A stretch of 64,000 bases of DNA from Pseudovirgaria hyperparasitica. Lineage: Eukaryota. This document shows positions 9,868-32,144 of the stretch, in pieces (position 1 is the first letter of the stretch; the number at the start of each line of letters is the position of its first letter). A program made the translations under genes and the position numbers. The DNA lies in assembly GCA_010093815.1 (NCBI GenBank), contig ML996582.1; one strand, given 5' to 3'. A model generated the notes under the pieces. It saw only the letters and a list, made by a program, of their open reading frames with translations. It was not told where the DNA came from and did no database searches.

Positions 9868-10000
9868 TGTGGGATTCCTATTAGGTAATCCCCGTTACTT
9901 AGATCTTATTTAGCGTTAGGCTGGTATATATAGCACTTAGATAGACTTAGTAGACACGTTAATTAATTTTTACCACGTCTAATTTACTAAAGTTCCTATA
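9868..10000 (+). repeat. E1 5' LTR (133 bp)
   Basis: Matches 31839-31971 except 6 RIP-type transitions; followed after 2 bp by TAGTAGC (de-RIP TGGTAGC, tRNAiMet-type PBS). Confidence 0.95.
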
Positions 10001-10149
10001 TCTAGTAGCTGAAATCTAGTTTTTATCCTCCTAGGGAGGCTATCGCTTCGGCGATGCCTCCTAAGGGGTAGTTATCTTACCCCTTATATAAGGGAACTCG
10101 TTAAAAACATTTAACGCTTACGACGAACTATATAACTTACTAGATAATA

Positions 10150-13100
10150 ATAAGAACGAACCTAGAGTCTAACACGAAAACCCTTCTCTAAAGTAATATA
10201 TTCTAATTTCGGAGATAGAAATTACGGTAATAAAGCTTAATGACTAAATTCGATAGTCCTAGCGGATAGTAATATATTATAAAATAAGCTAAAAGAGTCA
10301 CGTAAGAAAAATATATATTAACTCCCTCTATATCCGCGATAAATATTCTAGCTACTTATTAATATAAATTAATACCGTAATTCTAACTTAGAAGATAATT
10401 ATTACCCTAGGAAACGCCTTCCTTACCTAAGCTATATTAAGATATCTTCCTTATAGAACCCCGATCGCGATAGCGACGTCTCTATAGAAGGAGCTAATAC
10501 TCCCTAAAATATAGGACGCGCCCGTAATAAGCCGTTAAATACTATTAACGCGCTTACCGCACTCCTTAATACTAACCCGGCTATAAGGGACCTTACTAGA
10601 GACGCTCGTACGTTAGTACTAATTAATATATATACTAATCGACTCGAGTTATAAATAAGGAACGACTATATTACTCGAGAAGAACTAGTAAGAGACTTTA
10701 ATAACCTCCTCCTTAATAACCCTAACCGGGCGAGCCTAGCTATACTAGTAAGAAGAGGCCGTATCCTACTCTAAGCACCTAATATATACTTAGGAGAAAC
10801 TAGAGATAACGCCTACGAGGAATAGTACTTATTAATCTAGAAATGGATTTATACCGTGGAATTAGTAGAGCGCTAGGAAGCTATACCTAAGTTCGAGAAA
10901 CTATAAATCTATAGAATATATATATTAAAGTATATCTATACCCTTTAGTATAGCCTTATAGAAGCCCATAGACGTAATAACCTAGATAGTCCTTAAATAC
11001 TAGACGGCTTTCTAGATATTATACGTTAAACGTATATCTCTACTAATCGCCCCGAATAGCGTAGAAAGAAATAGAAGAACCTTACTTAATATCGTTTCGG
11101 ATCTACCTTAAAGCTTATTAATACTATTATTAAAAAGGCACGACTTCTACGACCCATGCCTTCTAAATATAAGATATAGCGTAGAATTCTAGGCGCCCTT
11201 AAGTCTAAGGTTTAACGTAAGATCGAAAAGTAGCCCTTTTCTTCTATAGGATTAGAAGAGTAGTATCTATAGGTAAAGAGGCTAGAGGAAGCCTTATATA
11301 TCTACTCTAGAAACGAATACTATAGGCGGGAGGCTACTTATTATATTAATACTATATATTACTAAGACGAAGAGGAGGAACCGGAAGAATTCGAACCTTC
11401 TAAGGACTTATATATACGCGAAGATAAATTAGGCGACTACTCTAGAGACGAGGGTAAGCTCCACGCGTTTATAAAGCGTTAATAGAGTAACCGAGGCCGC
11501 GGTAGAGGCTAGAACTAAGGCCGAGGCTATGGTAAATACTAAGGAGGCTCGTTAAGAGCTCTTAATAAAACCCGAGAATACTTTAACTATAAGAAGTTAG
11601 GATATATCTCGAGATTCTACCCCGAAAATCCAACTCTAGGTAAGCTAGTCTATATTACTACTAAGGATGACGCGTTAAGCGTCTTTAATAAAGAGGCCCT
11701 AAAAGCTAGTCGCCCGTAGTAGATATAGAAGATACTACAAGCAACTATAAGAGCTTCTATACTAATAATACCGATAAAAATAAGATAAACACATAGAACT
11801 ATAAACATATTAACGCGCTTTACAAATCGCTAGAGAGTGTCTACTATTATTAAGAGGAGTTAACGGACGTTATCGACGATCGCCTCTATTAACTAAACTC
11901 TATTAGTAGATAGTTACTAGAACTTAAGGCTTACGTAGGGGAAGTCCACCCCTAGAGGGTTTTAGTCCTTATTAACTATAGGGCTAATAGAACGTATACG
12001 TTAACGAAGGTTACTAGGCGTCTAAAGCTAGTACCGTAACCTACCCCCGTAATACGTGTTAAGCTTCCGTTAGGAGCCCTAATAATAAGTTAAGAAGTTA
12101 TAAAAATCCCTCTTTATATGGAAAGCTTTACTTACGAAGTCTCCGCGAGAGTACTTAACCTTAAGGGCTATAATCTAATTCTAGGTTATAAATGGCTTTA
12201 TAAATAGGATCCCGATATATTATAGAGATCCTATTCCCTAGTAATTAGGAGGCTAGTAGCTTAAGGAAGGACTAAGGAGTATCTCCTTAAGGGGATTCCC
12301 GCGTTAATCGATATTAACTTATAAGGAGAATAAGTGCTAAACGTCCTTACCGCTAGCTAAGCACGGAAATAATATCTAAACGGCTATAAGTAAGGTGTAA
12401 TATGGTTCATTAGGAAAGATAACCCTCCTATACCATAGGCACCCGATCTAATACTATAAACGGTTTTAACGGAGTACTAGGACGTCTTTAAAGAAAAGCT
12501 ACCTAAAGGACTACTACCTTTAAGATAATAGGACTATAAGATAGATATAGGAGACGGCCGACCCGTTAATAACGCCGTCTACCGCCTCTCCCTAGAATAA
12601 ATTACTAAATAGTAGAAGTAGATATAGGAGCTTATCGAGCGAGGGCTTATCTAAGAATTAGGAAGTACCTAGGGTAGCCTAGTACTTTTCGTACCTAAAC
12701 CCGGAGGTAAATAGCGAATATATATTAATTATCGAGTACTTAATATACTTACGTATAAGGATACGACCCCTCTTCCGTATATAGATGAATACCTATATAC
12801 CTTCGGCTAGTTAATAGTGTTTAGTAAGATAGACTTAACCTTAGGGTTTTAGTAAGTACGAGTAGCCGACGAAGACGTCCCTAAGACCGCCTTTAACACG
12901 ATTTATAGTAAATACGAGTTTAAGGTAATGCCGTTTAGTCTATTAAACGCACCTACCACATTCTAAAAGATAATAAATCGAGTTCTTTAACCCCTACTAT
13001 ATAAATCCGTGGTTATATACCTTAATAATATTATTATCTTTTCCGAAGATATGGAAGAACACGCTAGAGTACTATTAAAAGTACTTACTCTACTCCGTGA

Positions 13101-14034
13101 ATACCGCTTACTTACTAATCCGGAGAAATATAGTTTTAGCTAGACCGAAGTTAACTTCTATAGACACTACGTCTTATAAGGATAACTTCGCCTAATAAAG
13201 AATAAGATTAAGGTAATTCGCGAATAGCTAGAGTCTATAAACGTTAGCGAAGTCTAATAGTTCCTCGGCCTAGCGAATTATTATCAGAGGTATATCCGGG
13301 GATTTATAAGTATCGCCGCACCTCTAATAGACCTCCTTAAGGAAGTAGACCCTCTTATCCGTAAATAGAAATATAGGCCTATTTAATAGACGCTGTTAAC
13401 GGCGTTTACCTTCAAGACCCTAAAGAATACCCTGTGTTCCGAACCGGTTCTAGCTTAACCTAATAAGACTAAGCCCTTCTATATTAAAATAGATATAAGT
13501 AACTATACGATCGGTATAGTAATCTACTAGGAGAATCCTAGTAAGTAGTATTAGCTAATCGCGTTTAACGGACGAAAGCTTAATAGCGCCGAGCTTAACT
13601 ATCCGGTTTACGAAAAAGAACTCCTTACTATTAAACACGCCCTACGCACTTAGGGATACCTACTAGGAACGAAGAAGACGACGATCCTAACCGATTACTA
13701 TAGCCTATAGTTCCTTAAGTCTATAAAGGAATAAGAAGGCCGTATAGATAGATAGATTGATAAGTTCGGAAGCTTTAATCTCGATATAAAATATCGCCTA
13801 GGATCTAAGGCGGTAGTACCTAACGCCATTAGTAGAAGGCTAGACTTCTAAGGCGAGATCTCCGCGATACCGTTAAGTAAAGTTAATAAACACGTTCTTA
13901 TAGTCTAAATTATTAAGTTCCTAAAAGGAGCCGACCCGATAGAGCATGTACTAAAAGTCTCTCCCGAAATCCTATCTCGACTACGCCTTAACGCCGAGAG
14001 TAAACTTCGATATAAGCTATAGGATTTTAATAAT
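10150..14034 (+). pseudogene. E1 gag-pol remnant (gag knuckle, protease, RT, RNase H); start approximate
   Basis: De-RIP CFNCKKLGHISRFC ~11579; VLIDCGA ~11965; FKVMPF; YLNN (=YLDD) 13018-13029; LNYPVYEKELL ~13594; many RIP stops. Confidence 0.9.
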
Positions 14035-17000
14035 TATAAGAATAGGGTAGTTGGATAGTAGTATAGCTAGATAGAACAATGGGGTGTATTCTATTATAGA
14101 ACGAATTACTACCAAACCCTTTCGGTAGGAATCCGAGAGTATATATATAAAGGGACGCCGATCTATCTAGCACGTAACTATTTACCGCCCTTCACGTTAC
14201 CTCCTAACCCTATTAGCTAAGGTACGTATAGGTCGGGTTCTACCTAAGGCTAAGTCCTAATAATTATTCCTTCTCTCTAGGAAGCTACCCTTAGTAACCT
14301 AGATTATTACCTATCTCTATACCCCTATCCTAAGTCTCGTAAGACCTTAGTTATTCTCTATACTTCGTCTTAGATACTTACCGATATTTACTAATCTAAG
14401 ATTTATATAAGTGTTTTCCTAATAAACTAGATTTTATCTATCTTAATTTCTTACATAGGTAAGATTACCTAATTAGGCCTAGCGTATCACGTGATGTGAT
14501 TAGGTAAGCCCGGGTACTACCTATATTAAAATCTTTTCTTAGAAATATTCCTTTCTTTAAAAAACTTCTTAACTCTTTATAGAGTTTTTTAGATTATTAG
14601 GTATATTACCCGATCCTTATAGACATAGATTTATATAGATTTACTATAATTTAGTGCGATTTATATAATTTACTAATTTTCGTGCTATCCTTAGCTAGTA
14701 ATAATATAATTCGTAATAATCCGTATAAATTAATAATAATTATAATATAGTTTCCCGAAATCTCAACGCTCTAAAGTAATTAGTACGGAAATAGACGCCT
14801 TCGAATAATCCCTGTCTCGCATATATTACCGACATATTAAAAGCTATCGATCTACCTCGACCTAGGCCGGGCTCTAATAATCTAGCTATATATTATTATA
14901 GTTATTACTTTCTATCATATATTACTTACGGCGGTACTAAATCTATAATATACGGTACTTATATAACTAAGAAGCGTTATTACTTATAGGTATTTAAGTA
15001 AGTTCGAAGAACTTTACGTAGATTTACTTATATTAGTATAGATTACTACTAGGCCTCTAGTAACCCCTACCAATAAGGAGCGTAGTACCACCAATCGCAA
15101 CACCTTAGAGAAGGCTTTCTACGAGCTATATACCTAAGGTAAGGGTTACGCCTAGGAGTACGATTCTAATAAGATCTATAAGGGTTTATCGGAATCTACT
15201 ATAGCTATTATTACCGCGATTACTAGGTAATATCGTTTTTCTTAAATCGTTATAGATTCTTACTAATATATATTAATCTCTATAATAGTGCTAAAATCTC
15301 TACTACTTCGGACTTCTTTCTATATACCGGCGATATTAAAATTCCTAGAAAAGGTTCTAGTAAAAAGGCTAAGGTTCCTTCCTCGCGCGTACTAAAGAGC
15401 CGTAAATTTAGGGAAGATAGCTCTAATCTAGAAGTTTCTATACTAAAGGTATATAGTTCTATACCGATCGTTGAATCTTTTCGCTGATTTATGTAATTCT
15501 TAGTATACTTACGCTGGTCTATCCCTCTCTATCCCGGGTCCCGCCGCTCTATAGGTTTCTATAGAGGAGTTTATAGCTATAAGGCGCGCTATATAGAATT
15601 TATAGCGTCGGAACGAAAGGCTAGAGACTTATATTATAAAGCTCTATACTATGCTAAATAAGAACCAGCGGAAGGAATTAGATGGAACCATCGCGGTAAT
15701 TAGTACTTCTACTCCTACTCCGACTTAATCGGTTTAGATCTATACTAATCGGTGCTAATATGTCTCTTTTATCTAGCGTTTTTAGTTTTTTTAGTTTTAA
15801 TTTTAAAGCGATCTTACTTCTTCTAGATAGATTAGTACGAGTTTATATAGATCTATATAGATCTTTATATTTTCTTTTAGCTTTCTTAATTTTATCTTTC
15901 TTTAATAATAACTTCTTTAATCTCTTTAGTAATCTATACTAATCTATACCAATCGGCACTAATTTTCGATGTCCATTTCTCTTAGTAAATTATTTTTCTA
16001 AGTCTCTTTTTTAGTTAAATTTTTAAAGTTCTAAGTTCGAACTTTCTAAGGAAGTTCCTTAATTCCTTAGAATGTTTTAAAGATCTATATCTCTTTCACC
16101 TTCTTCCTTTTAGGCGGCCATCCTTAGCGCCGAACTATACTAAAAAACGTCGAATCGCCATACTTTAGTATAATTCTCTACGATTCCGCGGCTTCCTTTA
16201 CTAATCACTACTTATATACTAATATCGCTACTTTACTAATGTTTATTATAGGTTCCTAAGTATCTTTATTAGGATTATATCCTTTCTAACGAATCTTATA
16301 TAGCTACGTGCCATCTTCGGCGCGTTACTAGCTAAGTATCTACTTAACTTCGTAGATATCCGCACCTCCTTACGTAACTACTTTATATAATGTCTATTCG
16401 GAACGATCCGGTAACGATAAGGCATAGAATGGCTCGAGAAGCGTAATATAGAATACATTATATATCTTTAACGTGGGAGGGAGTTTTAACTTATACGCCT
16501 AGTTATTAATTACACGAGTAACCTTAAATAGACCTATTATTATATAGTTAAGCTTCTTCTTCGGCCTAATACTACGAATATTCTTACTATTTAGTAAAAC
16601 TTTATCTCTAATATTAAAGATCATGGGCTTTCTACCCTTATTATAGTACGATTTACTATAATCTATAGTATCTTATAATAACTTTATAACGCTTCTTTAC
16701 GTTTAGAATAGTTCTATTATAATCTCCGTCGCCTTAACGTTAGGCTACTCTAATTTATACTAAGTTCCTATAAACTACGCTTTATGGTTTCGACCGAAGT
16801 TTACTTCGAACGGACTTACGTAGGTTAACGTATGTCGGCTGTTATTATACGCGAATTCCGCGACATAGACTAACCTTACCTAGTTATCTTACTTATAGTT
16901 ATAATATACGCGTAAATACGCCTTAATTATCTAATTCTACCGCTCTATCTATCTATCTATTTATAGGTAGAACGCGGTACTAAGTTTCCGCTTAATTCCT

Positions 17001-19312
17001 AGCGTATAGTAGAAATCCTTCTAAAACTTAGACGTTATCTACGGACCTCTATCCGAAACTATACTATTTAGTATACTATAGAGCCGAACTACGTCATGAA
17101 GTAGTATATCTATAAGATCCGGTACTTAGATCGTCTTCCTTATAGGGATGTAGTATAATATCTTCGTAAATCTATCTAGAACTATAAGTAAACTATTATA
17201 AATATACCTAAGATACTTACTTAGGGGTAGATCTATAATAAAATCCATCGATAATTCTTTCCATGCCTTATTTAGTATAGGCAATGGCCTTAATTCGCTA
17301 TATGGTAAGTATCTATATACTTTCGTATGCTAGTAAACGTTATACGTTTTTACGTAGTCCTTTATATACTTATAAAGACCTAGCTAGTCGTACGTCCTTC
17401 GGATTAAATCGACCGTCCTTATAACGCCGAAGTGTCCTACTAATGCGTAATCGTACTGTTCCCTTAAAACATTAATTTATAAGCTACCTTCCGGCACGTA
17501 GAGTCGGCCTTAGAAGTAGATCGCGTCCGATCGTCGTTCCCACCTTAATAACTATGGCGGTTCTATAGCGATTCCCTTTATGCTTATGACTTTCTTTACT
17601 AATATATTAGAATTCTAGGTAGATTTAATTAAGTCTTCGAGGATTTACTCTATTTCTTAGACGTTAGTTTAGATTACTTAATACCCGCTCTAATTCCCAC
17701 GGAGAGTCGCCGAAAGTGTCCTAGCTTCCGGCACTCTATTAGATAACTAGTCTTTTAGTATCTATAGTATAGTATAGTCTAAATTACACCGACTATCTAC
17801 GTTATTCTACGACGATTTCTCGTAATCTTCACGCCGTAATAGAGGATCTACTTTATTCTCTCTTCTAGCTTTATATAAGATTTTAAAGTTAAATATTAAT
17901 ATCTACTTAGCCTAACGTACTTATCGGCGATTAAGGACCTTAGTCGATATAAAGTAATATAGATTTACGTAATCCGATAATAATTTAATCTAATATATAG
18001 AGCCTTCTAAATAATGTCGCTATTACTTAAAACTCTTAATAATTATAAGTAGTTCCTAGTCATACGTGTTATAACGCGTCTCTATATCCACTATTTTACG
18101 GGAAAAGAAGGCGACCGGGTGCTATTATACCTTGTCTTTTACATCTTTATACGGTTAACTAATAATTCTAGTAATTACGAATCTAGATACGTCTATTTTA
18201 ACCCGAATATACTTCTCGGGATCGAAATATCTAAGGATTGGTATAGTTATAAAGTAATTCTTTAACGATTAGAACGTATCTCGCGCTTCCGGCGTTAACT
18301 ATATCTTAACTAACTCCGCTTTACGCTGTGCTCGCCCACCTATAGAGATTTTACCGCCATTTTTAGTGAGTTTATTAAGCGGCGCTGTAATTCGTAAGAA
18401 ACCTATAATAAATTTACGATAATAGTTTACGAAACCTATGAACGTCCTAATTTAACGTATAGTAGTAGGTTCTAGCCATTCTATAATGGTCTTAACATGC
18501 TCTGGCTCCATTTTAAGGCCGCCGTATATTATAATAAAGCCGAGAAACCTAACTTCTTATTAGTAAAACTTATATTTAGATAACTTTATATAGAGTTTAT
18601 ACTATCTTAAACGATTTAGCACCGATTTCACGTATTCTTCGTGATCCTATATACTATCGGAGTAAATTAGTATGTTATTAAGGTAAACTACGTAGATTAC
18701 ATTAAGTAATCCTATAAGTATAGTATTAATATATCCTTAGAACGCTCCTAGCGTATTTATTAGCCTAAACGGTATAATAGTATACTTAAAATAACTATAT
18801 CTAGTCCGAAATACGGTTTTCTATTTATCTCCGCGACGGATTCGAAGCCGGTAATATATATCTCGCAAATCTAGCTTTATAAAGTACTTTGCCTTCGTTA
18901 ATTAGTCTAAAGATTCACTAACTAATGGTAATGGGTGACGATTCTTCTTAGTTACTATATTTAGTGCTCGATAGTCGATATATAGACGTAAACTTCCGTC
19001 TTTCTTCTTTATAAAGAGAATAGGTATACTAGCTAATGACGTACTATAACGTATCTAGCCTCTTCCGAGATATTCTTTAATATATTTATAAAGAACTTCG
19101 AGTTCTAGTCTTGAAAGTAGATAAAGTAGACTATAAGGGACGTCTACTCCCTCTTCGAGCTCGATCTTTAGCTTATACAGTCTATGGTCGGGGAGAAGTA
19201 ACGCGTCTTCTACCGAAAATACATCCGTGTACTACGAATATACGTCGGGTAGCGTGTCTTTACCCCGATTGTTACTATCCTCTTCGTCTTCGTCGACGAT
19301 TAATAGAGATAT
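14035..19312 (-). mobile_element. E2: chromovirus (Gypsy with chromodomain), RIP-mutated, 5'-truncated, nested in E1 pol
   Basis: Putative 3' LTR 14035-14262 (TATAAG...CCTAATA) followed by reverse-complement PPT; on - strand RT (YLNN 18674-18685), RNase H, integrase, chromodomain (YEVK.IL...YKIRWKGY....DTWEP ~16230-16360); gag, protease and 5' LTR absent. Confidence 0.88.
14747..15728 (+). pseudogene. E2 antisense accessory gene, 4 exons, ~270 aa, Cys6 zinc-cluster-like motif plus C-terminal coiled coil (RIP-mutated)
   Basis: Exons 14747-14989, 15042-15226, 15289-15448, 15504-15728 join in one frame via GT-AG introns; de-RIP PCLAC...CGTCITKKRxCLQ|I; start ATA read as RIP-mutated ATG. Confidence 0.7.
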
Positions 19313-19550
19313 TATAATAAGTAAAGACGTAGAATAGTAGTCTAATAGTTCATAGAGAGACATAGAAATGTATTTATAGAGTAGTCTTACTCTTATACGA
19401 GGTTGATTCCTAACGAGTAGGAATCGGTTTATACGGTCCACTTATATAGTAACCTCGCTTAACCTAGCTAACTTATTCTAGCTCTAGCCGCTACGTGGCT
19501 ACATGGATTAGAATAGTCTATATAGGTCCGTTAGGGTTCCCGTCCTAATA
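19313..19550 (-). repeat. E3 3' LTR (238 bp)
   Basis: Direct repeat of 27099-27336 differing by transitions. Confidence 0.95.
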
Positions 19551-20029
19551 ATATTCTTCTTCTTTTTATACTTCGCCCCGAAGCACTTAAGTATATATAA
19601 TCCTAAGTCTCTATAATCTACTATATATCTATATATCCGTAACTAAGTTTCTATAACGTTATAACTATTCTTAATATAGGTAAACTCGAGATTCTAGTTT
19701 ACTTTTACTAGTTTATACACGCGCTTATCCCTTACTTTATAGCTACTACCTAGGACACGTAATTACTACTTTAGTTAAGTATATATTTAGCTTCGCTCGC
19801 CTTTGATTTTATTCTCTAGTATATCCACCTCGCTCTTAAGGTAAGTCGTTAATTCATATACTATCTTCTCTAGTTTAGGTTTAGAAGGGTCTATTATGGT
19901 CTATTCTTATTAGAACCGGTCCTATATAACCTATTCGCGTTATTACGGTTACTAATTTAGCTTCGTTAATTACCGTTAAGGGTAGACGAATATTCCTTCC
20001 TTAGATCTCTAGCTAATATATATATATAG

Positions 20030-21345
20030 ATGTCTAATACTAGTCCTATCTCTAAGCCTGCCTCCTCCTCTCGTAAGACTCGCTCTAAAGGTATTACCTC
20101 CTCCCCGGCCACGCTAGCTAAGAAGCCTACCTATTAAGATAGTATAAAGGCGCGCTCTAAGTCGGAGAAGAGGGTAGCTAGGGCTACTACTACTACTTCT
20201 ACCTCTACTACTAATATAGCTACTAGTCGCTCTAATCTAGGTAATCCTAGTACTGAATTTATGGATAAAGCGGTCGTAAGTTCTCCCCTTACTCTAACGC
20301 GTACGCCGCCTACTCTACCTCCTCTAGAGGATAAAGAAGATCTTATTATAGATGATAATCGCGAGCCCTCGCGCTTACCTACGCCGCCGCCTCACCGCTC
20401 TCCCTTCCAGTCTAACATAGACCAATTTAGTTACTCTAGGTCCTTTTAGGACCTTAATATTCGCTCTAAACCCTAGCCTACTAATAATAAGACCTAGGTC
20501 GCTAAGGATACTAAACGTAGTCGCGGTTTACGCCATAGGAAAACAGCGAACTACAGTTTAATATACTATAAGTATATTAAGGGCTATACGGCCGGCTCTA
20601 AATATCTCTTTCGCTCTAACTCTAGTATTAGCTACTACTCTACTAACCGCGACGGGCCTATACACCCTATCTTTACTCTACCTACCCGCTACCGCCACTA
20701 TACCATAACTAGTAAGACTTATCTATAGGTAAGTATAATAGGCTATCTTAGTCTAGTATAATCTAAAGTTATCCACGCTAATACATTCTTAGATTCCTAT
20801 ATATATATAAGATATATATAACGACCTTCGCGTCCGCGAGACCCTCGGGGGTCCTTATAGCTATCTATCTACTATATAGAGGGAGTTTAGAGAGCGCTAT
20901 AAGCTCTTCCTAGAGGTTATTAAAGTATAAGTTATAAACACGTTAATTATTTTTAACACCTATTAATATTTCTAGCCGCCGCGAGATCCCTAGCGCCTAG
21001 GCTACCTATTCTAGAGAGTCTATCCTAGCTATAGAGACCGTAGAGAGGATTCGCTCTATCCCCTCTTATCCGTCTCACGCTACTAACAGATCTTATAAGA
21101 GGTCTACTATTTCTCCCTCTAAGTCGCCTCATAAGAGGGTATATATTCCCTTCTAGATTATTCTAGATCATATTAGCTAACTTTAGACCTAGTCGCTGCG
21201 CTCCGGCGCTTAAGGCTCTTCCCTCTAGGCTCTAACGGATTAGATTATTACTCTAGAGGCTAAGGTCATTACCCTCCACCACTATATCGTGCAGTTAGAG
21301 AGAACTATACTAGAGGTTATAACGGATAATAAGATAGAGGAGTAG
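20030..21345 (+). pseudogene. E3 antisense accessory gene, 4 coding exons, ~384 aa, S/P/K-rich N-terminus, Cys6 motif, C-terminal coiled coil (RIP-mutated)
   Basis: Intact ATG at 20030 directly after a 5'UTR intron 19841-20029 (GTAAGT..GCTAAT..TAG); introns 20729-20792, 20927-20975, 21139-21186 keep one frame; de-RIP CxKC...C...CRHCTMTGKTCLQ|IP. Confidence 0.75.
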
Positions 21346-21899
21346 CTCTATGGTTCTAGCTCTATATATTAGCTCTATATATTCTAGATCTACTATAGAT
21401 AGTGCGCGCCGGCTCTATTTACCTAGCTTTTATCCATTTTAGTCCTTTTTTAGACCATTTAGATACCCGTCGACTAGTTTCTAGTAATTTAATTCTTAAC
21501 TTAACAATATTATATATACGCTCGCTTAGCTTATAACTATCGGTTTCTACATTCTAATTTTCCTTAAGTTACCTAAGTATAGGCACCATATATTAATTAG
21601 TTTATCTCTATAAATTCTATTAGAGTACCCGAACTAGTAGCCTAGTAGTTATTAGTTCGGGTACTCTAACCTTTTATATTTTATATTAAGAGTTTAATTC
21701 TATAGTAGGGTACCTTTTTTAGGTTCTTAGTCCTATATTTTTCTCGTGTATAATAGTCCATATTAGTCTATTCTAGACTCTTCTATTATAGTATATCGCG
21801 TCGCGTTCCTAAAATAGTTACTTACGCTTTCTTCGCGTCTAGTAACCGTATAATACTTAAATTATAGGGCTACCTTATAGAGTTTTCCTAGTACGCGTC

Positions 21900-24800
21900 T
21901 AGATTTCCTAATTAAGTACTTCGTTCTCTACGGCATCCTTCTTCTTTTTATAACGACCGCGACGTCGCTATATTTACATTAATAATACGCTATTCTATAT
22001 CTTTTACTTATACACAGCCATTATAGAACTTAAGATATATACCGCTAGTTCCTAGGTATCCTCGTCCTTAGTGTAGTCCTTCTAATAGATTCTATATTTC
22101 TAAACACCGTCTTTATCAATTCTATATTCGATAATATAGTCCACTTCAAACACGTCTAGTCTATCTTAGGGTATAATAGAGTGTAACTATACGTTCGTGC
22201 GGTTATACACGTTAGATCAAAATCTTTCGAGTAGTAAGACGTGAAACACATTATAGATTCTTATATCGCTTCCTAAGTCGAGCTCGTAGACTCTTATACC
22301 GATATAACGTTTAATTCGGAAGGGACTAGCCATTTTATAATCGAGCTTCTTATTTACTCGCGATATTCATATATTACGGACGTTAAGAAGGACCTCGTCG
22401 CCCTCCTCATACGTCTAATCCTTAGCTAACCTATTATAGTACTTCATATACAAGTCGTTTACTTATTAGATTATAGCGCAATAGTTACGTACGGTTTTAA
22501 AGATTTTAATCACTAATTCCTAAGCGTAGACGTTCACGTCTATTATTCGATTAAATTAGACCGTATAAGGCTTAAAACCTATCCTTAGACTACGTCCGAG
22601 GTTCGCCTAGAAAGGTATAATACTAGTCATACTATAACGACTATTATTATATACGAACTCTACTATACTTAGTAGGGAGGCCTAGTCATCCTACTCAAAA
22701 TTATAGAATACGCGTAGGTAGGCTTCGAGCATCTAGTTCTATCGCTCTATCTAGCTACCCATCTAAGAATAAAATACTATAGACATATTCCTATTTATAC
22801 TTACTATTTCGTAGAATAACGTCTAGAATTTAGACGTAAAGGTACTTCCTCAGTCCATAACGATCCTTTTTAGTATACCATAGACCTTAATAATCTCGTT
22901 CTAGAACACCTACGCTAGTTCTTTAGATGTAATCATCTTCCATACCGGGATATACCTAGATATCTTTATAAGTCTATCCACAATAATAAGAATAGAATTA
23001 TAACTTATTCTAAGTATCTCGCTTAGAGATAAGTTAACTATAAAATCCATAGTAACGTCTTCCTATATAAAGAGAGGGACTAAAAGAGGCTATAAATTCC
23101 TATATAGCTTATGCCTAGGGGCCTTCATTCTTTAACAAATCGGATAAGTAGCTATCTATTCTTCGACGTACTTAGGTATATCTTCCTAAAAATAGTACTA
23201 ACGAATTAAGCTTAGGGTACATATATACCTAAAGTATCCTACTAGGTTAGCGTTATAGTATTAGCTAACTATATTAAATCACGCGTTACCCATCAGCATA
23301 TAGTACTTTCTATTATAGTAAAGTAAGCCGTCCATGAAGGTCTACTTATAGTCTACTTTAGTCCATAATAATCTATCTTACTATATTTTACATAACTTTA
23401 AAACTATCGGGTCTATCTTCTATAGATCCACGATTAACTAGACAAGGTTAATTAGATATTCACGCCGGGTATTATCGCCCTTCCCAATAGCGCTAATAAA
23501 CGGCCTACTAGGGACTTCGGTACCGCGTCTTTAGTTACCGGCTTCGGTCTTAGAGATTCGATTACCGGCATCAACGTTAGTATCTCACTAATCACCTAAT
23601 AACTTAAAATCTAACCTCATCCTCAAGAGTTAGGCCTATAGCTACTCTAGAACCCTATAGCTACTATAATCCTAGGCGCCTTCTTTATAGTTAGGTCTTC
23701 TTAATATTCTATTAGCTAGGTTTATACTTCTAGATCAATAGTAGATTATAAAGTAAAAGTTCGTAAGCTACTTAGCCCATTAAACCTATTAACGGTTTAA
23801 AACCATCATGCTTATAAACCCCTTTAAGTTATAGTAATTAGTTAGTAACTCAACGTTATACATGGCACCTTTAAGATAATATCACCACTATTTAAACGAC
23901 TCTACTATTACTAGTAGCTCTTAGTTATAGATAGTATATCTAGTCTTAATATCGACTATTTTACGCGAGAAGAATGTAACTAGATACCATTAGACCTTTT
24001 TAGACTTAGTTAGTCTAGACTAGAAGAGAATACCTAAGATTATAAATCCTAACGCGTTAGTTTTAACGTAGATAGATTTAGTTAGGTCGAAGTATACTAG
24101 TAATAGGGTAGTAGTAAATACCTCTTTGATTTTCTTAAAGAAGGCCCTTTCGCCTTCCGATAATTCTATAGACTATAATTTAATATTATACTATTTCTAT
24201 CTACCGCGGACCGTAATAGACAAATCTATAGTAGTAGTACACGCGTTAAGCGGTACTACTAGCCGGGAGAAGTACTTAACAAATTTTCAGTAGTAATTAG
24301 CGAATCCAATAAAGACACGTATATCTCGAACCAATTTTAGTTTAGGCTAGTCCACAATAGTAGCAACCCTATCCCTTTCTATAGTTATACCTTAATTAGT
24401 AATAACAAAGCCAAGGAAGTTAACGTAGTCCTAGTGGAACTCATATTTAGATAGCTTAATATATAGCTTATATTTTTCTAGCCTATCTAGGACTACGCGT
24501 ACGTGCTAGATATATTCTTCTTCATTATTAGAGAAGATAAGAATATCATTAAGGTATACGATACACGTCATATCAAGTAGGCCTACTAGCGCGTTATTAA
24601 TATACGCTTAGAAGGTCCCTAGCGCGTTAGTTAGTCTAAAAGAGACCACTATATACTCAAAGTATCCATAACGGGTCCTAAACGCCGTTTTCCACTCATC
24701 GCCCTTCTTAATATATAGGCGGTAGTAGACGTCACATAGATCGAGCTTAGTAAAGATCTTCGCGCGCCCTAGTCTATTAATAGACTCAGAGATAAGAGGT

Positions 24801-27076
24801 AGTAGATAACAATTCTTTCATATAATATTATTTAGGCTACAGTAGTCAATACATAGACAGAGACTCCTATCCTTCTTCTTTATAAAGAGGATTAGAGCTC
24901 CGGCTAGGGATATACTAGACCTAATCTATCCTCGCGTAAGGTTCTTTTCGATATATTCTCAGAGGACCTATAGCTTAGGTTCTAATAGAGGGTAGATAGG
25001 TCCGTATAGGGGTTATTAACTATCCTCAAGGTTAATAGTAAGATCAGTAGATTAGTATTAAGGTAATTCGGACGAGTCAATCGCTAACGCGATATATTAG
25101 TATATTTTATACTAATATAGTAGGTTTTCGTCCACTTTAATACTAAGTTCTCTATTTTAAGTAAGTAAGAGAACGTAGATAGTAGAGATTACCTTTTCAT
25201 AGTCCTTCTAGAATTATTCGTCGTCAACTAGCTATACTAGGTTCTATTATAGTAGGTGCATACGCTAGCCAGCTATTTTCTAGATGAAGTCTAGTTTCGG
25301 GTTATATTTTTCAAGCTACGGTATACTAAGAATCATATCAAAGGGGCTATCTACCACGATAAAGGTTAAGTAGTAGAGTTTCTACTTCCCCCCACTATCC
25401 TAGATACCATATTTAATAGTATAGATACCCTACGATTTAATAGGACCATCAATACTATAGAAGGTAGTATCTATTAGTACTTAAATATCAACATTAAGTT
25501 CTCGTGCTCATTAAGTCGATATAACGTTAGTAGCTAAACTACTATCAAGTATTACAGTCTAATGTTATCCACAGGGGACCTTAATAGGCCTAGCCTATAG
25601 TTTAATATACTAGTTAGCTAGTTATCCCTCTATTTTAGTTACGCCTATAAGTCGCGAGGGTTTCTTATAGGTAGTTAGTTTTTTATATTATATACCGGGT
25701 AGTTAGGCGCGATATATCCTAGCTACTAGCACTTATAGTATATAACTAACTTAGTATCTATATTAGTATTCAGTAGTTTCCTAGAGCGGTACTCGGGTAC
25801 TATATAGCCTATCCTACCATAAGTATAGTAGGTAACTTTAGGTTATTTATACGAGTCGTTTCTCGCGTCTCGATATATTAACCGGTAGGAAGATCTACGG
25901 TACGGGCCTCGTCCTCTTAAGTTCATAGAGTAGTAGTACCCACAAGATATTCCGCGCGATCTATTACTAAACCAGTCCTCTTTAGACGATTTCGTATTAG
26001 ATTAGATTAGTAGGGATAGTCGTGCACCTATACGGCGTTAGTTATTTATTATACGCTAGTATCGTTCTATAAGATTCACGAGTACCTAAAGGTCAGTAGA
26101 GATAGACGTTATAAGATTAATACGTTCTTTTACACTCGGATTAAGGGACCTTTTAAAGTTATCATATTATCAAACCATACAATCTTCCTTAGCTTCTCTC
26201 TAGAGAGGTCGGAGGTATTCAAGGAGTTATAACGGGGATTATCTTTCTCGCTATTAAGTCTTAAAGATATAGCTCTAAGCCTATTCGCGTCGCTCGGCTC
26301 TATCACTAAAGCATTAAAGAAGGAATTCGGTGAACATATCCTAGTTATACACATCCTTAGGGTATTTAATCCAATATACTATCTAACGTTTAGATAGCGT
26401 TAGATCTAGGTAGTTCTATACGAACCTAATCTTATTACTATCGTTCGTAAATAGATAGAAGAATTAGCTATACTAGTAAGCCTATTTATAAAAGCTCTTC
26501 CTAGTTTTACCATCGAAGTAAGGTAGTTTCTTAGGCTAAGGTAACTAGGATAGTAATAGACTTAGTTAGACTATTTCGGCTTAAGTTAGTCTATATTAGT
26601 ATAGGTTAGTTACTACTAGTACTAAAGCGCGTAGTACGGCTTCGAGTCTAGCGGTTTATCCTTATACTTCGTCGAGTTCACGAAGTTACTATTTAAGCTA
26701 AGCCTAACGCTATCTCTCCGCGTGTAGCCTAGTATATATATTATCGTGAGGCGTAGTTAACGTTAGTCGGTTCTAATAAATTAGTTTATTAACGTTAATA
26801 GGGTCTGGTCTTATAGTAAGGATAGGTCTAGTATAGTATAAACTAGACCGCGATAGAGTATAATAGACTCCTTCCTTATTATCTAGGTAGTCTTCCACGG
26901 TTACATGGAATACCGTACTAGTTATTAGTATAATAGCTTATAGGGTATACTTATTAGTAGAGGTGGTCGTAGGGAGACTATTCTCCTCGTTTAGATTTAG
27001 GGAGAGTCTCTCGTAGGAGGTCGTGCCACGGGTATTATAGCGTGTAGTAGGAGCTATCTCTATAAGCTACCGTCAT
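21900..27076 (-). pseudogene. E3 gag-pol remnant; 3' end approximate
   Basis: Probable gag ATG 27076; slippery A AAA AAC 25678-25684 just before the gag stop; pol domains in the -1 frame. Confidence 0.88.
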
Positions 27077-27098
27077 ACTATATAGGGAGGAATTAAAA

Positions 27099-27336
27099 TA
27101 TAATGAGTAAAGACGTAGGATAGTAGTCTAATAGTTCATAGAGAGATATAGGAATATATTTATAGAGTAGTCTTACTCTTATACGAGGTTGATTCCTAAC
27201 GAGTAGGAATCGGTTTATATGGTCTACTTATATAGTAACCTCGCTTAACCCAGCTAACTTATCCTAGCTCTGGCCGCTACGTGGCTATATGGATTAGAAT
27301 AGTCTATATAGGTCCGTTAGGGTTCCCGTCCTAATA
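27099..27336 (-). repeat. E3 5' LTR (238 bp)
   Basis: Repeat of 19313-19550; TATATAAG on - strand at 27227-27234. Confidence 0.95.
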
Positions 27337-29070
27337 GGTATTAACTTTATAGATATACTCCCCACTACGTATAACGGTAATAGTTAGATAATAATAGTAA
27401 TTAACTACGTAACGGGATGGCCTATCGTATAGGTAGTCCCTAAGGCGACCGTAGAGTCCGTCGCGAGGTTTATTTATAAACGAATCTTTATAGATTTTAG
27501 ACCCCCCGCCGCACTAACCTTAGATAACGGTTAGTAGTTTCTATTAAGAGTGGTTAGCGCACTACTACGTATCCTTAAGACGGAATATAAACTTACTACG
27601 CCTTATTACCCTCGTATAAACGGAAAGGTTAAACGCCTTAATAGAACCTTAGAAGGTATCCTTACCCGTATATGTATAGGCGAACTAGTAACTAACTAGG
27701 ATATATACTTACTAGCCGCCGTTTTCGCCACGAGGATCCGACGATATAGAAGTATAGAAGTTAGTCTATATTATCTAGTATATAGATAGTACCCTAACTT
27801 ACTAGGGAATATTCCTAGAGAAAAGGATAAGTTAATATCCTTTAACGAACTTATTAAGTAAGTTAAGAAAGTATAACACGCTAGGACACTAGCGCTAAAC
27901 GAACTACTTATGGAAGCCGCTCGCCGAGACCTTATAGATCCGACTCGGCTTAAACCTAAAGACTAGGCGCGACTACCTATCGGTTAAATCATTTTACTAA
28001 AGAATAAATAGAAAACGAAGTTTAAAACGAACTACTTAGGTCCCTATAAGGTTCATATATAATACCCCTTAGATATATACGCGCTAGAAACACCTAACGG
28101 ACGTATTCTACGATACCTTATATATGGTAATAGACTAATTACGGTAAGAGGCATTAATAAGCTAGATAACTTCTAGACGAGATAGGAGATTAACTTATAA
28201 ATATCTAAGGAAATTAGGAATTAAGTGGCACCTTACTTACTAGATATCGAGAAGGTTTTAGAGAAAGAGAAACCTACCCTATATTAGACGACTCTATCCT
28301 CCCTTCCTAAGAAGGAGTAGAACCGGCTATAGTAGCTACGGAGTTAACGAGAGTTAACGTACGAGGGCGTATATTCGTTCTTAGTAGAGGAGAGCTCGAT
28401 AGACGTAGATATTACGCGTTAAATTAGGCTTACTAATATAAGAAATCGACGTAAACGGAGAGCTACCGTAACTACATTAATCGTACTAGTACTAATCGTT
28501 ATTAACAAACTAAGAAATATACTAGAAGAATAACACGAGAATAGTAGAGTAATATAACTACTAATAATAAATATCGAAGAGAGCTACGATACTCTAAGGG
28601 TAGAGGAAGCCTAAACGATAACTAAGAAACTAATAGATAATCTATTAAACGAGATTAACACGGTAGAGGAAGCCATGATAGAAGCGAGATAGAAAGAATT
28701 ACCTAAAGAAATAAGCTTAGGAGACGAGTTTAATAATACACGAATAGACTTAGATAAGGATGTCTAACTAGAATATAAGAATTCTATAAGTATAGATATA
28801 GACTTAGATATAGAAGAAGTATTAAAGAAGGTTAATAAAGTAAATAAACAACCCCTAACCGACTCGGACTACCCTATATAGAATCTTATAGAAAGCGAAC
28901 CTTATACGCGAAAGAGAAAGCGATTCTATATAGATGAACGTAGTAGAGAAACCTAAGCGGCTATAGCTAGCGCGTTAAGATAAGTTAATAGATTAGAGGG
29001 AGAGAGGTACTCTCTACGGAAAAAGATATTACCTTCGAAGCTATTATAGGAAAGCTTAGAATATAACTAA
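27337..29070 (+). pseudogene. E1 integrase catalytic core and acidic C-terminal tail; end approximate
   Basis: De-RIP GIDF..LPTT, IDY.TGWP, LTSDNG.QF, TTPYHPR.NGKVERLN, YLGPYKV; no chromodomain seen. Confidence 0.88.
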
Positions 29071-29339
29071 CTTTAGTCTTTCCCTAATTATCTCCTTTAT
29101 ATATAGTACTACTAACCCCCTATTTACTTATTTAGAATATATACAGCTATTAAAGAAGATTAACGAGTCTTAGAAATTACTAGGAGGTTAAAGAAAGAAG
29201 ACGTGGACTTATAATAACATTATATAAGTCTAAAATTACTATTTAAGAACCGTAAGACTAAATAGAGATAAAAGAAAGCCGTTAACGCCTTTTAACGCTT
29301 AATAAGATAGAGTATCATTATAAAATAGAAGCCGCCTAC

Positions 29340-31456: not shown

Positions 31457-31838
31457 AGAAAGTTTAAGTTAGAAGGGAAAAAGGTAAAGTTAAAGTTTAT
31501 ATATATAAAATTATAGTATTAATCGGAGTAATTTCTAAGTTTATAGGAGTTTTAGCTATATTATTAGATATTATTAAAAGGAATTAGCGCTGGAAAAACT
31601 AAGGAAAAGATTAAATTAGTTAAGAAATATAAGGTTAAAGGATAGTAGAATATAGGAATAGTAAAGGTAACTATTTAGTACTAAAATAAGCTTAGACTAC
31701 CGCCCTTACGTGACGTATTGCTAATGCGGCCTAGCGCCAAAGAGATTTCACATATCTACCTCCCTATATTATATATTCTAACTCTATTAATCGTCTTTAA
31801 CGGCCTCGTAGAAGCTTATATAATTAGAAGGGGGAAGA

Positions 31839-31971
31839 TGTGGGATTCCTATTAGGTAATCCCCGTTACTTAGATCTTATTTAGCGTTAGGCTGGTATAT
31901 ATAGCACTTAGATAGACTTAGTAGACACGTCAATCAATTTTTGCCACGTCTAATTTACCAAAGTTCCCACA
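31839..31971 (+). repeat. E1 3' LTR (133 bp)
   Basis: TG...CA termini, preceded by PPT, followed by the CACA TSD. Confidence 0.95.
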
Positions 31972-32144
31972 CACAACCCATGCACCCGTCAGCCGCAGCT
32001 ACATTGCCTGTATAAAGCTAGCAGCCGCGCATCGAGATCCCTGCCTGAATGGTTCGATCATTTCCCCTTCTAGACAGTCTAAATGGCACCCTGGGAGGGA
32101 GGGGCCGTCGATCATCATCCACAGTATACGATGCTGACTGCGCG

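What the first reader, a model, noticed from the sequence alone, without database searches (positions are those of the whole stretch)
14813..21345. E2 and E3 antisense genes look homologous, with conserved intron positions and phases
Seen: E2 reads TAC GGT ACT TAT ATA ACT AAG AAG CGT TAT TAC TTA TAG|intron 14990-15041|ATT. E3 reads TAC CGC CAC TAT ACC ATA ACT AGT AAG ACT TAT CTA TAG|intron 20729-20792|ATT. Both de-RIP to C-x2-C-x6-C-L-Q|I with a phase-0 intron at the same position. Both then have a phase-2 intron, a 160 vs 163 nt S/K/R-rich exon, a phase-0 intron and a last exon with a heptad-like helix (E2 MRRAMQNLQRRNERLETYIMKL; E3 LTDQIITLEAKVITLHHYIVQLERTM). Their LTRs are not obviously alignable. 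Inference: an old gene family kept by selection inside chromoviruses, with a zinc module plus dimerisation coil as in a transcription factor.
Basis: partly seen in the sequence, partly recalled or inferred. Interest (0 to 1): 0.85.

Follow-up and report, generated by a model that had tools for sequence, protein, structure and literature searches.

The report
Antisense zinc-cluster gene in fungal retrotransposons
Two mutation-riddled fungal retrotransposons each carry, on the strand opposite their own genes, the remains of a small intron-bearing gene for a cysteine-cluster protein whose intact relatives in other fungal retrotransposons look like Gal4-type DNA-binding dimers.

Summary
The quoted strings are on the + strand at 14951-14992 and 20690-20731. 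That exact pattern occurs twice in the window against about 0 expected.

Both sites lie antisense in the spacer after pol of two RIP-mutated Ty3/gypsy elements, 1219 and 1276 nt from the pol end.

Whole-region DNA and protein alignments of E2 against E3 do not beat shuffles, so the two are not shown to be homologous over their length.

Independent support came from 79 un-RIPed metagenome chromovirus loci:
- Six carry an antisense gene with C-x2-C-x5-7-C, exactly two codons, then a phase-0 intron. This matches E2/E3.
- Six more carry other antisense six-Cys genes.
- Predicted folds of two such families match Zn2Cys6 DNA-binding domains followed by a long helix.
- dN/dS in one family is 0.14-0.19.

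E2 exon 1 has full Zn2Cys6 spacing, read as RIP-made Tyr. It is the best profile hit in the RIP block, and 0 of 40 shuffles reach its score.

Not confirmed:
- E3's first half-cluster.
- Intron 2, whose frames do not close.
- The coiled coil in E2/E3.

An antisense gene (brtn) is already known in the Botrytis chromovirus Boty; the zinc-cluster reading appears unreported. Both window copies are dead.

The parts
19313..27337 (-). E3: complete Ty3/gypsy (chromovirus-like) element, about 8025 bp, RIP-mutated
   Evidence: RVT_1, RNase H and SH3_Tf2-1 lie in one minus frame. Terminal repeats are 95% identical and 100% identical in R/Y space. Flanks GATAT/GGTAT act as a target duplication, and a purine tract lies next to the 3' LTR.
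19313..19551 (-). E3 3' LTR (the 5' LTR is 27099-27337)
20030..20728 (+). E3 antisense gene, exon 1. It has an intact ATG at 20030, an S/T/P-rich N-terminus and an acidic patch, followed by a Tyr-rich (RIP-mutated Cys) region.
   Evidence: 5 stops in 233 codons (2.1%), all TAA/TAG. This is the lowest of the six frames (4.3-21%) and below the pol frames (6.3-6.7%). The architecture resembles L057 exon 1.
20690..20728 (+). E3 motif TAC-x2-TAT-x6-TAT-CTA-TAG, read as C-x2-C-x6-C-L-Q
20729..20792 (+). E3 intron 1 (phase 0, 64 nt): GTAAGT, CTAAT branch, TTCTTAG
   Evidence: The position matches the introns of 6 un-RIPed loci.
20793..21345 (+). E3 downstream part: putative exon 2 from 20793, a 163-nt exon at 20976-21138, an intron-like stretch 21139-21186/21192, and a last segment to 21345. 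The structure is not verified.
   Evidence: No frame stands out here (stops 6.5-14%), and the intron 2 junction does not close in frame.
16208..19195 (-). E2 pol (RT, RNase H, integrase zinc domain, integrase core, SH3_Tf2-1). E2 is a 5'-truncated fragment.
   Evidence: No LTR pair, gag or protease was found.
14795..14989 (+). E2 antisense gene, exon 1. It is open for 64 codons, with a possible RIP-mutated start (ATA) at 14834.
14897..14983 (+). E2 six-Tyr pattern Y-x2-Y-x6-Y-x7-Y-x2-Y-x6-Y. This is Zn2Cys6 spacing if each TAY was TGY before RIP.
   Evidence: It is the best of 2874 windows against a RIP-mapped six-Cys profile (16.2 bits). 0 of 40 shuffled blocks reach that score (maximum 15.0).
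14990..15041 (+). E2 intron 1 (phase 0, 52 nt). The donor GTATTT is weak; a GTAAGT lies 8 nt downstream.
15042..15729 (+). E2 downstream part: exon 2 from 15042, a 160-nt S/K/R-rich exon at 15289-15448, intron 15449-15503 (GTATAT, CTGAT, TAG), and a last segment to 15729. Partly verified.
   Evidence: In the exon 1 frame the stretch 14987-15224 is stop-rich (10 stops in 80 codons), and the frame reopens at 15227. A TGA at 15485 lies inside the proposed intron 3. The donor at 15227 closes the frame; the one at 15139 does not.
9869..31972 (+). E1: the outer element that holds E2 and E3. Its LTRs are 9869-10001 and 31840-31972.
   Evidence: Its integrase core resumes at 27340, right after E3.

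Best explanation
E2 and E3 are RIP-inactivated Ty3/gypsy retrotransposons. Each carries, between pol and the 3' LTR and on the opposite strand, a dead copy of an accessory gene.

SHOWN
- Position and strand of the gene.
- A Cys-cluster motif read through RIP as Tyr. It is complete in E2; in E3 only the last C-x2-C-x6-C is clear.
- A phase-0 spliceosomal intron exactly two codons after the last Cys. The same junction is found in six intact elements from other fungi.

INFERRED
- The protein is a small nuclear factor with an N-terminal Zn2Cys6-like zinc cluster, a basic Ser/Lys/Arg linker and a C-terminal self-associating helix. It would bind DNA as a dimer in the manner of Gal4.
- It is transcribed from its own promoter near the 3' LTR.
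- The antisense orientation explains how introns survive. The element replicates through its sense RNA, on which antisense introns are not recognised, so they are copied rather than spliced out.
- The likeliest role is control of the element's own or host transcription or chromatin. This role is a guess.
For: - The exact 42-nt pattern occurs 2 times against an expectation of about 0.
- The looser pattern Y..Y.{5,7}Y.. followed by GTA occurs 6 times in all six frames of the 21.8-kb RIP block. Two of these are the E2 and E3 sites. They sit at matching distances from the pol end.
- The E2 six-Cys profile hit is the best of 2874 windows at 16.2 bits. 0 of 40 shuffled blocks reach it.
- E3 exon 1 starts with an ATG and has 2.1% stops. 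Pol frames have 6.3-6.7% and other frames in the same stretch 4.3-21%.
- Six of 79 un-RIPed loci have the motif, then two codons, then a canonical intron of 44-50 nt, with the reading frame continuing. All six are antisense and downstream of pol. The strict scan found 4 on the antisense strand and 0 on the sense strand.
- Other antisense six-Cys genes occur in L012, L039, L056, L061, L068 and L014.
- All 10 profile hits with E<1 in six-frame loci are antisense. Four of these are training members.
- AF2 models of the L014 and L039 families have mean pLDDT 76 and 80. Their Foldseek hit lists are almost all Zn2Cys6 DNA-binding domains.
- A self-association model of the L014 protein scored 0.32, with the best of 3 controls at 0.00. 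That mark was reached by 21 of 30 proteins solved as pairs and 0 of 23 solved as single chains. The runs agree in at least 60% of contacts and partner pLDDT is at least 69. The pass may reflect likeness to solved coiled coils.
- dN/dS is 0.14-0.19 in the antisense frame of L068/L061/L056, and 0.31-2.2 in the other five frames.
- A precedent exists: the antisense gene brtn in Boty (passages in PMC8365987 and PMC7264820).
Against: - E2 and E3 are not significantly alike outside the motif.
- The six-Tyr pattern alone is expected 0.43 times per RIP block. A second, presumably chance, instance lies at 18620-18721.
- The E3 motif region scores only 5.3 bits against the six-Cys profile, rank about 29. 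Its first half-cluster has irregular spacing.
- A profile of the L014 family alone does not single out E2 or E3.
- Pfam Zn_clus is not reached by any relative: L014 scores 13.6 bits against a cut-off of 21, and the rest score nothing.
- The L014 and L039 families are not demonstrably homologous to each other (hhalign probability 4%).
- Fold matches are weak in E-value (0.2-10).
- Fold, dimer and selection evidence comes from sister classes, not from the class that shares the E2/E3 intron.
- Intron 2 does not close in frame.
- The dimer model is antiparallel, unlike Gal4.
- Nothing bears on expression.
Confidence: 0.78

Rival explanations
1. Chance plus reader's freedom. In RIP-saturated DNA, Tyr, Leu, Ile and stop codons and GTA/TAG strings abound. 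Any frame can be 'de-RIPed' open and any stop skipped with an 'intron'. On this view the shared motif is a coincidence.
For: - Tyr makes up 8-10% of codons in every frame, and the six-Tyr pattern is expected 0.43 times per block.
- Intron-like signals occur at 1.4-2.1 per kb per strand.
- Whole-region alignments are at noise level.
- Real pol frames still carry 6-7% stops, so stop counts discriminate poorly.
- The intron 2 frames do not close.
Against: - The exact pattern occurs 2 times against about 0 expected.
- Only 4 other motif+GTA hits exist in roughly 39,000 codon positions. By my rough estimate from those counts, both spacers being hit, within 57 nt of the same relative place and with the same two intervening codons, has a probability of order 1e-5 to 1e-4.
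- The same junction is present in six intact elements found independently.
- 0 of 40 shuffles reach the E2 profile score.
Confidence: 0.07
2. A real antisense gene with a simpler structure than the reader drew: two exons with only the first intron, as in L047, L021 and L057. The later 'introns' would then be RIP-era frameshifts or non-coding tail.
For: - Class-A relatives mostly show one intron followed by a single open exon of 76-190 codons.
- Intron 2 does not close in frame.
- In E3 no frame is clearly open after about 20925.
Against: - In E2 the exon 1 frame reopens for 86 codons at 15227-15482. A TGA and a TAA fall exactly inside the canonical-looking intron 15449-15503.
- Exons of 160 and 163 nt with the same entry and exit phases occur in both elements.
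- L002 appears to have a second, phase-2 donor (GA|GTAAGT).
Confidence: 0.3
3. The conserved thing is not an antisense protein gene. It would be a sense-strand ORF (env-like) or a cis-acting RNA/DNA element of the 3' region.
For: Minus-strand frames are also fairly open in part of the E3 spacer: 20391-20139 and 20130-19971 are open, and stops are 4.3% in one minus frame.
Against: - The lowest stop density is in the + frame, which has an ATG.
- Splice signals and the motif read only on the + strand.
- In intact relatives the open frames, introns and dN/dS minimum are all on the antisense strand.
- The DNA is not conserved between E2 and E3.
Confidence: 0.04
4. Fragments of a host Zn2Cys6 transcription-factor gene, into or next to which the elements inserted. 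On this view they are not element genes.
For: Zn2Cys6 factors are very numerous in fungal genomes (established knowledge, not from a call).
Against: - The E3 copy lies inside E3's LTRs and target duplication.
- Two elements with about 65% pol identity have it at the same internal place.
- Pfam Zn_clus is not matched in any frame.
- The same arrangement is seen in 12 of 79 unrelated loci.
Confidence: 0.02

Closest known systems
[quoted passage not shown] 2011, Virology 417:248)
   Same: Both are an extra gene in a fungal chromodomain-bearing gypsy element, between pol and the 3' LTR, on the antisense strand. My sources are passages in PMC8365987, PMC7264820 and PMC4227169. PMC5987419 reports a Monilinia transcript similar to BRTN.
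   Different: I could not obtain the paper or any BRTN sequence, so homology, intron structure and any zinc motif of brtn are untested. The review PMC7264820, section 7 (read whole), says no similarity to known proteins has been described for any such antisense ORF. The window copies are RIP-dead and come from a different fungus.
Plant antisense aORFs between pol and 3' LTR (Grande gene23, RIRE2, Retand ORF4, PvRetro13 ORF2)
   Same: The same place and orientation in Ty3/gypsy elements. Some localise to the nucleus, and a regulatory role is suspected (PMC7264820 sections 5 and 7).
   Different: These are plant, mostly non-chromovirus lineages with no reported Cys-cluster. No sequence relation was tested here.
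Fungal Zn2Cys6 binuclear-cluster transcription factors (Gal4, Ppr1, Put3, Leu3, Hap1, Pho7, AlcR; Pfam PF00172)
   Same: - E2, L012, L014, L039 and L068 have the spacing C-x2-C-x6-C-x5-12-C-x2-C-x6-8-C.
- Predicted folds of the L014 and L039 families have two short helices and then a long helix.
- PDB fold hits are almost only these domains.
- Cluster, then linker, then coiled coil is the Gal4 layout (established knowledge, not from a call).
   Different: - These are host genes, not element genes.
- The Pfam score is below cut-off or absent.
- The class that shares the E2/E3 intron has variable loops (x10-x21) in its first half.
- The proteins are short (about 150-350 aa) and lack the fungal-specific middle homology domain (no Pfam hit).
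- The modelled dimer is antiparallel.
Antisense accessory genes of complex retroviruses (for example HBZ of HTLV-1, a bZIP factor; recalled, no call)
   Same: An antisense-encoded, spliced, dimerising nuclear regulator expressed from the 3' LTR side of a retroelement.
   Different: A vertebrate retrovirus and a bZIP protein, not a zinc cluster. This is an analogy only.

Membership tests
Antisense aORF of Ty3/gypsy elements (aORF-3R; brtn type) | Lies between the end of pol and the 3' LTR | tested here: met
   E3: the gene at 20030-21345 lies between the pol end (22004) and the LTR (19551). E2: it lies downstream of the pol end (16208), but the 3' LTR was not identified.
Antisense aORF of Ty3/gypsy elements (aORF-3R; brtn type) | Reads on the strand opposite to gag-pol | tested here: met
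   Pol is on the minus strand. The motif, ATG and splice signals are on the plus strand.
Antisense aORF of Ty3/gypsy elements (aORF-3R; brtn type) | Sequence homology to BRTN | not testable with these tools
   No BRTN sequence or Boty DNA could be reached. The paper is not held. E3 exon 1 found no protein at E<=10.
Antisense aORF of Ty3/gypsy elements (aORF-3R; brtn type) | Own antisense transcript | not testable with these tools
   No RNA holder is listed for this DNA.
Intron-marked antisense Cys-motif gene (class seen here in L001, L002, L005, L021, L047, L057) | C-x2-C-x5-7-C, exactly two codons, then a phase-0 GT...AG intron | tested here: met
   E2 at 14951-14989|14990 and E3 at 20690-20728|20729, with Cys read from RIP-mutated TAY.
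Intron-marked antisense Cys-motif gene (class seen here in L001, L002, L005, L021, L047, L057) | Sequence similarity of exon 2 (the R-x-x-N/D-V-L-D/M region about 12 residues after the last Cys) | tested here: inconclusive
   By eye, E3 has N-D-L-R at the same offset (12) and E2 has N-T-L-E at offset 22. The class members themselves align poorly. No statistic was computed.
Pfam PF00172 Zn_clus (fungal Zn2Cys6 binuclear cluster) | Six Cys spaced C-x2-C-x6-C-x5-12-C-x2-C-x6-8-C | tested here: met
   Met for E2 as RIP-mutated Tyr (14897-14983). Not met for E3, where only the last half is regular and the first half reads Y-x3-Y-x5-Y.
Pfam PF00172 Zn_clus (fungal Zn2Cys6 binuclear cluster) | Profile score at or above the gathering cut-off (21 bits) | tested here: not met
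   No hit in any frame of the window. L014 scores 13.6 bits (E 0.077), L039 nothing, and 8 further relatives nothing.
Pfam PF00172 Zn_clus (fungal Zn2Cys6 binuclear cluster) | Fold: two short helices around a two-zinc cluster | tested here: inconclusive
   AF2 models of the L014 and L039 families show the two short helices. PDB hits are nearly all Zn2Cys6 domains, but at E 0.2-10, with rmsd 1.8-3.6 over 30-45 columns. The models are of relatives, not of E2/E3, and zinc is not modelled.
Pfam PF00172 Zn_clus (fungal Zn2Cys6 binuclear cluster) | Zinc-dependent binding to CGG-type DNA sites as a dimer | not testable with these tools
   Only a self-association model of L014 was made: 0.32 against a best control of 0.00; mark reached by 21 of 30 pairs and 0 of 23 single chains.
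Chromovirus (Ty3/gypsy with integrase chromodomain) | RT, RNase H, integrase and a C-terminal chromodomain | tested here: inconclusive
   RT, RNase H, integrase and SH3_Tf2-1 are found. Pfam Chromo is not detected in the RIP-mutated copies. The closest database Pol proteins nearly all carry PF00385, and E2 and E3 align to each other for about 200 nt past the SH3 domain.

The most novel reading that the evidence does not exclude
Fungal chromoviruses of both Ascomycota and Basidiomycota carry retroelement-encoded, Gal4-like Zn2Cys6 transcription factors. These are antisense, spliced genes under purifying selection. Their protein dimerises and binds DNA, perhaps the element's own LTR or host chromatin targets. 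The introns are kept because the genes lie antisense to the replicating RNA. If so, mobile elements have been spreading and diversifying the DNA-binding fold that is the hallmark of fungal gene regulation.
Probability: 0.3. Interest if true: 0.8.

Novelty: new variant of a known kind. Interest (0 to 1): 0.62.

Why it matters
Extra antisense genes in LTR retrotransposons are known, but no function or protein family has been assigned to any of them (PMC7264820, section 7).

This work gives one group of them three concrete features:
- a zinc-cluster fold;
- a probable dimerising helix;
- an intron junction that can be used as a search key across fungal genomes, even in RIP-mutated copies.

That makes the open question of what these genes do directly testable, through zinc and DNA binding, target sites in LTRs, and effects on transposition or silencing.

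It also offers a clean natural example of why intron-bearing genes in retroelements must lie antisense.

The two copies in this window are themselves dead and of no functional consequence.

Tried and rejected
- No whole genome is held for the window.
- The look-up of sequencing runs listed 2 DNA holders from one study and no RNA holder, so I laid no reads.
- E3 exon 1, read with X at stops, found no protein at E<=10.
- A RIP-mapped profile of the L014 family alone did not pick out E2 or E3. Searches failed on a wrong option and were rerun.
- A search for E2's LTRs by transition-tolerant alignment stayed at shuffle level. E3 gag-protease matched nothing in 27338-31838.
- A direct regex for C..C.{6}C[LIVMF][QW] in the 79 loci gave only 2 irrelevant hits. 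The wider search worked only after allowing any two residues before the intron.
- The loci are all about equally far from E2/E3 in pol, at 31-50% identity in RIP-saturated space. No close un-RIPed relative of E2/E3 was obtained.
- The ESM Atlas look-up of L047 exon 2 gave only a 0.77 lead to an unrelated family, which I discarded.
- hhalign of the L014 family against the L039 family gave probability 4%.
- PDB sequence searches with both families found nothing relevant.
- Earlier-findings look-ups returned nothing.
- Literature searches for a zinc-cluster antisense retrotransposon gene found none in the held library. Zhao et al. 2011 is not held, and supplements were not consulted.
- The stop-density argument is weak on its own. 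Open runs of 45 codons or more occur in all six frames, and true pol frames carry 6-7% stops.


Full report
SETTING

Window 10-32 kb is an AT-rich block (GC 0.33-0.39 against 0.47-0.64 outside) with a strong TpA excess (TpA/ApT 1.4-2.5). This is the signature of RIP, the repeat-induced point mutation of fungi. No whole genome is held.

I read all six frames with X at stops and scanned them against Pfam. This gave three elements:
- E1 on the + strand, with RT at 12691-13158 and RNase H at 13408-13767. Its integrase core resumes at 27340.
- E2 on the - strand, with RT at 19012-18530, then RNase H, the integrase zinc domain and the integrase core, and SH3_Tf2-1 at 16606-16427.
- E3 on the - strand, with RT at 24883-24401 and SH3_Tf2-1 at 22402-22220.

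Two repeat pairs differ only by transitions:
- 9867-10001 / 31838-31972. A polypurine tract lies before the right copy, so these are E1's LTRs.
- 19313-19551 / 27099-27337. The flanks GATAT/GGTAT suggest a target duplication, so these are E3's LTRs.

E3 is therefore a complete element of about 8 kb, sitting in E1's integrase. E2 is a 5'-truncated fragment: I found no LTR pair, gag or protease for it. E2 and E3 pol are 65-68% identical in DNA. Their homology ends at 16208 and 22004.

THE OBSERVATION

Both quoted strings are present on the + strand, which is antisense to pol, and each is followed by GTA.

How unusual this is:
- The exact degenerate pattern occurs twice in the window against 0.00 expected. 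It was defined from the data, so this overstates the case.
- The looser pattern is three Tyr/Cys/His-class codons spaced x2 and x5-7, then two codons, then GTA. It occurs 6 times in all frames of the RIP block, and 2 of these are the E2 and E3 sites.
- The two sites lie 1219 and 1276 nt from the pol end.
- From these counts I estimate (my inference) a chance probability of order 1e-5 to 1e-4. That covers both antisense spacers being hit, at the same relative place, with the same two intervening codons.

Against this, the two spacers as wholes are not alike:
- A transition-tolerant DNA alignment of the gene regions scores 46, against 50-84 for shuffles of the two spacers.
- The best protein alignment after in-silico RIP saturation scores 60, against shuffles up to 57.

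IS THERE A GENE?

Stop counts are a weak guide here. True pol frames still carry 6.3-6.7% stops, and open runs of 45 codons or more occur in every frame. Two observations still point to a gene.

- E3 has an intact ATG at 20030. It is followed by 233 codons with 5 stops, all TAA/TAG. This is the lowest density of the six frames.
- In E2 the frame of exon 1 is open over 14795-14984. It is stop-rich over 14987-15224 (10 stops in 80 codons). It reopens at 15227-15482 and 15497-15656. The only TGA falls inside a canonical-looking intron at 15449-15503.

Intron-like signals, however, arise by chance at 1.4-2.1 per kb per strand.

In E2 the donor at 15139 gives phase 1, and in E3 the donor at 20925 gives phase 0, whereas both acceptors need phase 2. 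A weaker donor at 15227 does close the frame in E2.

The 160-nt and 163-nt exons exist, and both end in phase 0 before GTATAT.

INDEPENDENT EVIDENCE FROM INTACT ELEMENTS

E3 pol found over 1200 chromovirus Pol proteins. I aligned 25 of the 120 listed and used the alignment to fetch 79 metagenome loci with pol on the + strand. 51 of these have at least 600 nt downstream of pol. None is close to E2/E3.

Twelve of the 79 loci carry an antisense Cys-cluster gene just downstream of pol. They fall into three classes.

Class 1: L001, L002, L005, L021, L047, L057
- Each has C-x2-C-x5-7-C, exactly two codons, then a canonical intron of 44-50 nt. The donors are GTGAGT, GTAAGT or GTAGGT. Four have a CTRAC/CTRAY-type branch signal.
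- The frame continues afterwards for 76-190 codons.
- This is the E2/E3 junction (C-L-Q|GTA).
- The strict scan found 4 such junctions on the antisense strand and 0 on the sense strand.

Class 2: L012, L039, L056, L061, L068
- These have a canonical Zn2Cys6 spacing.
- In L012, L068 and L056 a phase-2 intron splits the loop between the third and fourth Cys.
- L039 has an intron upstream of the cluster instead.
- The L039 family has 64 representative clusters at E<=1e-3. They include hypothetical proteins of Melanogaster, Astraeus and Pisolithus.

Class 3: L014
- This gene has no intron.
- It has 40 unnamed metagenome relatives.

The intron position is therefore conserved within the class that includes E2/E3, but not across classes.

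THE ZINC MODULE

In E2 the Tyr codons at 14897-14983 spell Y-x2-Y-x6-Y-x7-Y-x2-Y-x6-Y. RIP turns TGY (Cys) into TAY (Tyr), so this is a full Zn2Cys6 spacing.
- The pattern alone is expected 0.43 times per block, and a second instance exists at 18620-18721.
- I built a profile from 36 six-Cys regions of classes 2 and 3, mapped to a RIP alphabet. It ranks the E2 site first of 2874 windows at 16.2 bits.
- 0 of 40 shuffled blocks reach that score; the maximum was 15.0.

E3 is weaker. It scores 5.3 bits, at about rank 29. Its first half reads Y-x3-Y-x5-Y, with a long loop before the regular last half. Class-1 relatives also have long and variable first-half loops.

Pfam Zn_clus is not reached by any sequence tested.

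AlphaFold models of the L014 and L039 families have mean pLDDT 76 and 80.
- Each shows two short helices at the Cys pairs, followed by a helix of 54-71 residues.
- Their Foldseek hit lists in the PDB consist almost entirely of Zn2Cys6 DNA-binding domains: Pho7, Put3, Leu3, Ppr1, Gal4, Hap1, AlcR and Cep3.
- E-values are weak at 0.2-10, as expected for a domain of about 35 residues.

THE HELIX AND SELECTION

A self-association model of the L014 protein scored 0.32, against a best control of 0.00.
- That mark was reached by 21 of 30 proteins solved as pairs and by 0 of 23 solved as single chains.
- The runs agree in at least 60% of contacts, and partner pLDDT is at least 69.
- Contacts run from residue 71 to 109 with 3-4 spacing, in antiparallel register.
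- The pass may reflect likeness to solved coiled coils. It supports self-association but does not show it.

Among L068, L061 and L056, dN/dS in the antisense frame is 0.14-0.19. In the five other frames it is 0.31-2.2.

These results concern sister classes. For E2/E3 the basic exon and terminal helix fit the same layout of cluster, K/R/S-rich linker and helix, but they are not statistically tied to it.

WHAT IS KNOWN

An antisense gene, brtn, between pol and the 3' LTR of Boty-like gypsy elements of Botrytis and Sclerotinia was described in 2011. I saw this only as passages in PMC8365987, PMC7264820, PMC4227169 and PMC5987419. The paper itself is not held.

A 2020 review states that no similarity to known proteins has been described for any antisense extra ORF (PMC7264820, sections 5 and 7 read whole).

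Five full-text searches found no report of a zinc-cluster antisense gene in a retrotransposon. The held library lacks most subscription journals.

Whether brtn belongs to one of the classes seen here is the main open point.

VERDICT

The motif, its place, its strand and the first intron are real and homologous to a gene class present in intact chromoviruses.

The reading as a zinc-cluster protein is well supported for E2, and for relatives by fold.

The three-intron plan, the coiled coil in E2/E3 and overall E2-E3 homology are not established.

Both window copies are RIP-dead. The kind of gene (an antisense accessory gene in a fungal chromovirus) is known. The Gal4-like nature and the conserved junction appear to be new.

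Noticed in passing
window 9869-31972: The whole AT-rich block is one outer gypsy element (E1, + strand, 133-nt LTRs, PPT AGAAGGGGGAAGA). E3 is inserted in its integrase and a 5'-truncated E2 lies upstream of that. The RIP block ends exactly at E1's LTRs.
   Followed up: partly
window about 28100-31826: E1 has about 3.6 kb between its integrase SH3-like part and its polypurine tract. There is no Pfam hit and no Cys-motif-plus-intron signal on its antisense (minus) strand. Its content is unexplained.
   Followed up: partly
window 18620-18721 (+): A second six-Tyr pattern with Zn2Cys6-like spacing lies antisense to E2's reverse transcriptase. It scores 10.5 bits against the profile, within the shuffle range, and is taken as chance.
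   Followed up: partly
window 20185-20223: A TAC/ACT low-complexity run inside E3 exon 1 reads as poly-Thr/Ser in the gene frame. It gives a spurious poly-Tyr profile hit in another frame.
   Followed up: yes
L012 5295-5258; L068 about 4578-4543; L056: In a second class of antisense genes, a phase-2 intron splits the zinc cluster itself, between the third and fourth Cys. It sits at slightly different codons in L012 than in L068/L056.
   Followed up: partly
L039 13716-14276 (-) and proteins P0161-P0224: This antisense-gene family is annotated only as 'hypothetical protein' in the Boletales genomes Melanogaster, Astraeus and Pisolithus. Full-length forms are about 300-350 aa, with a K/E-rich N-terminal part.
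   Followed up: partly
L001-L079: Many metagenome contigs begin and end with the same 99-184 nt. They look like circularly permuted assemblies of one LTR plus the internal region, so linear 'downstream of pol' distances can wrap around, as in L005.
   Followed up: no
window 32607-33011: Short inverted repeats (62-79 nt in purine/pyrimidine space) lie just outside the RIP block, in the GC-rich flank.
   Followed up: no
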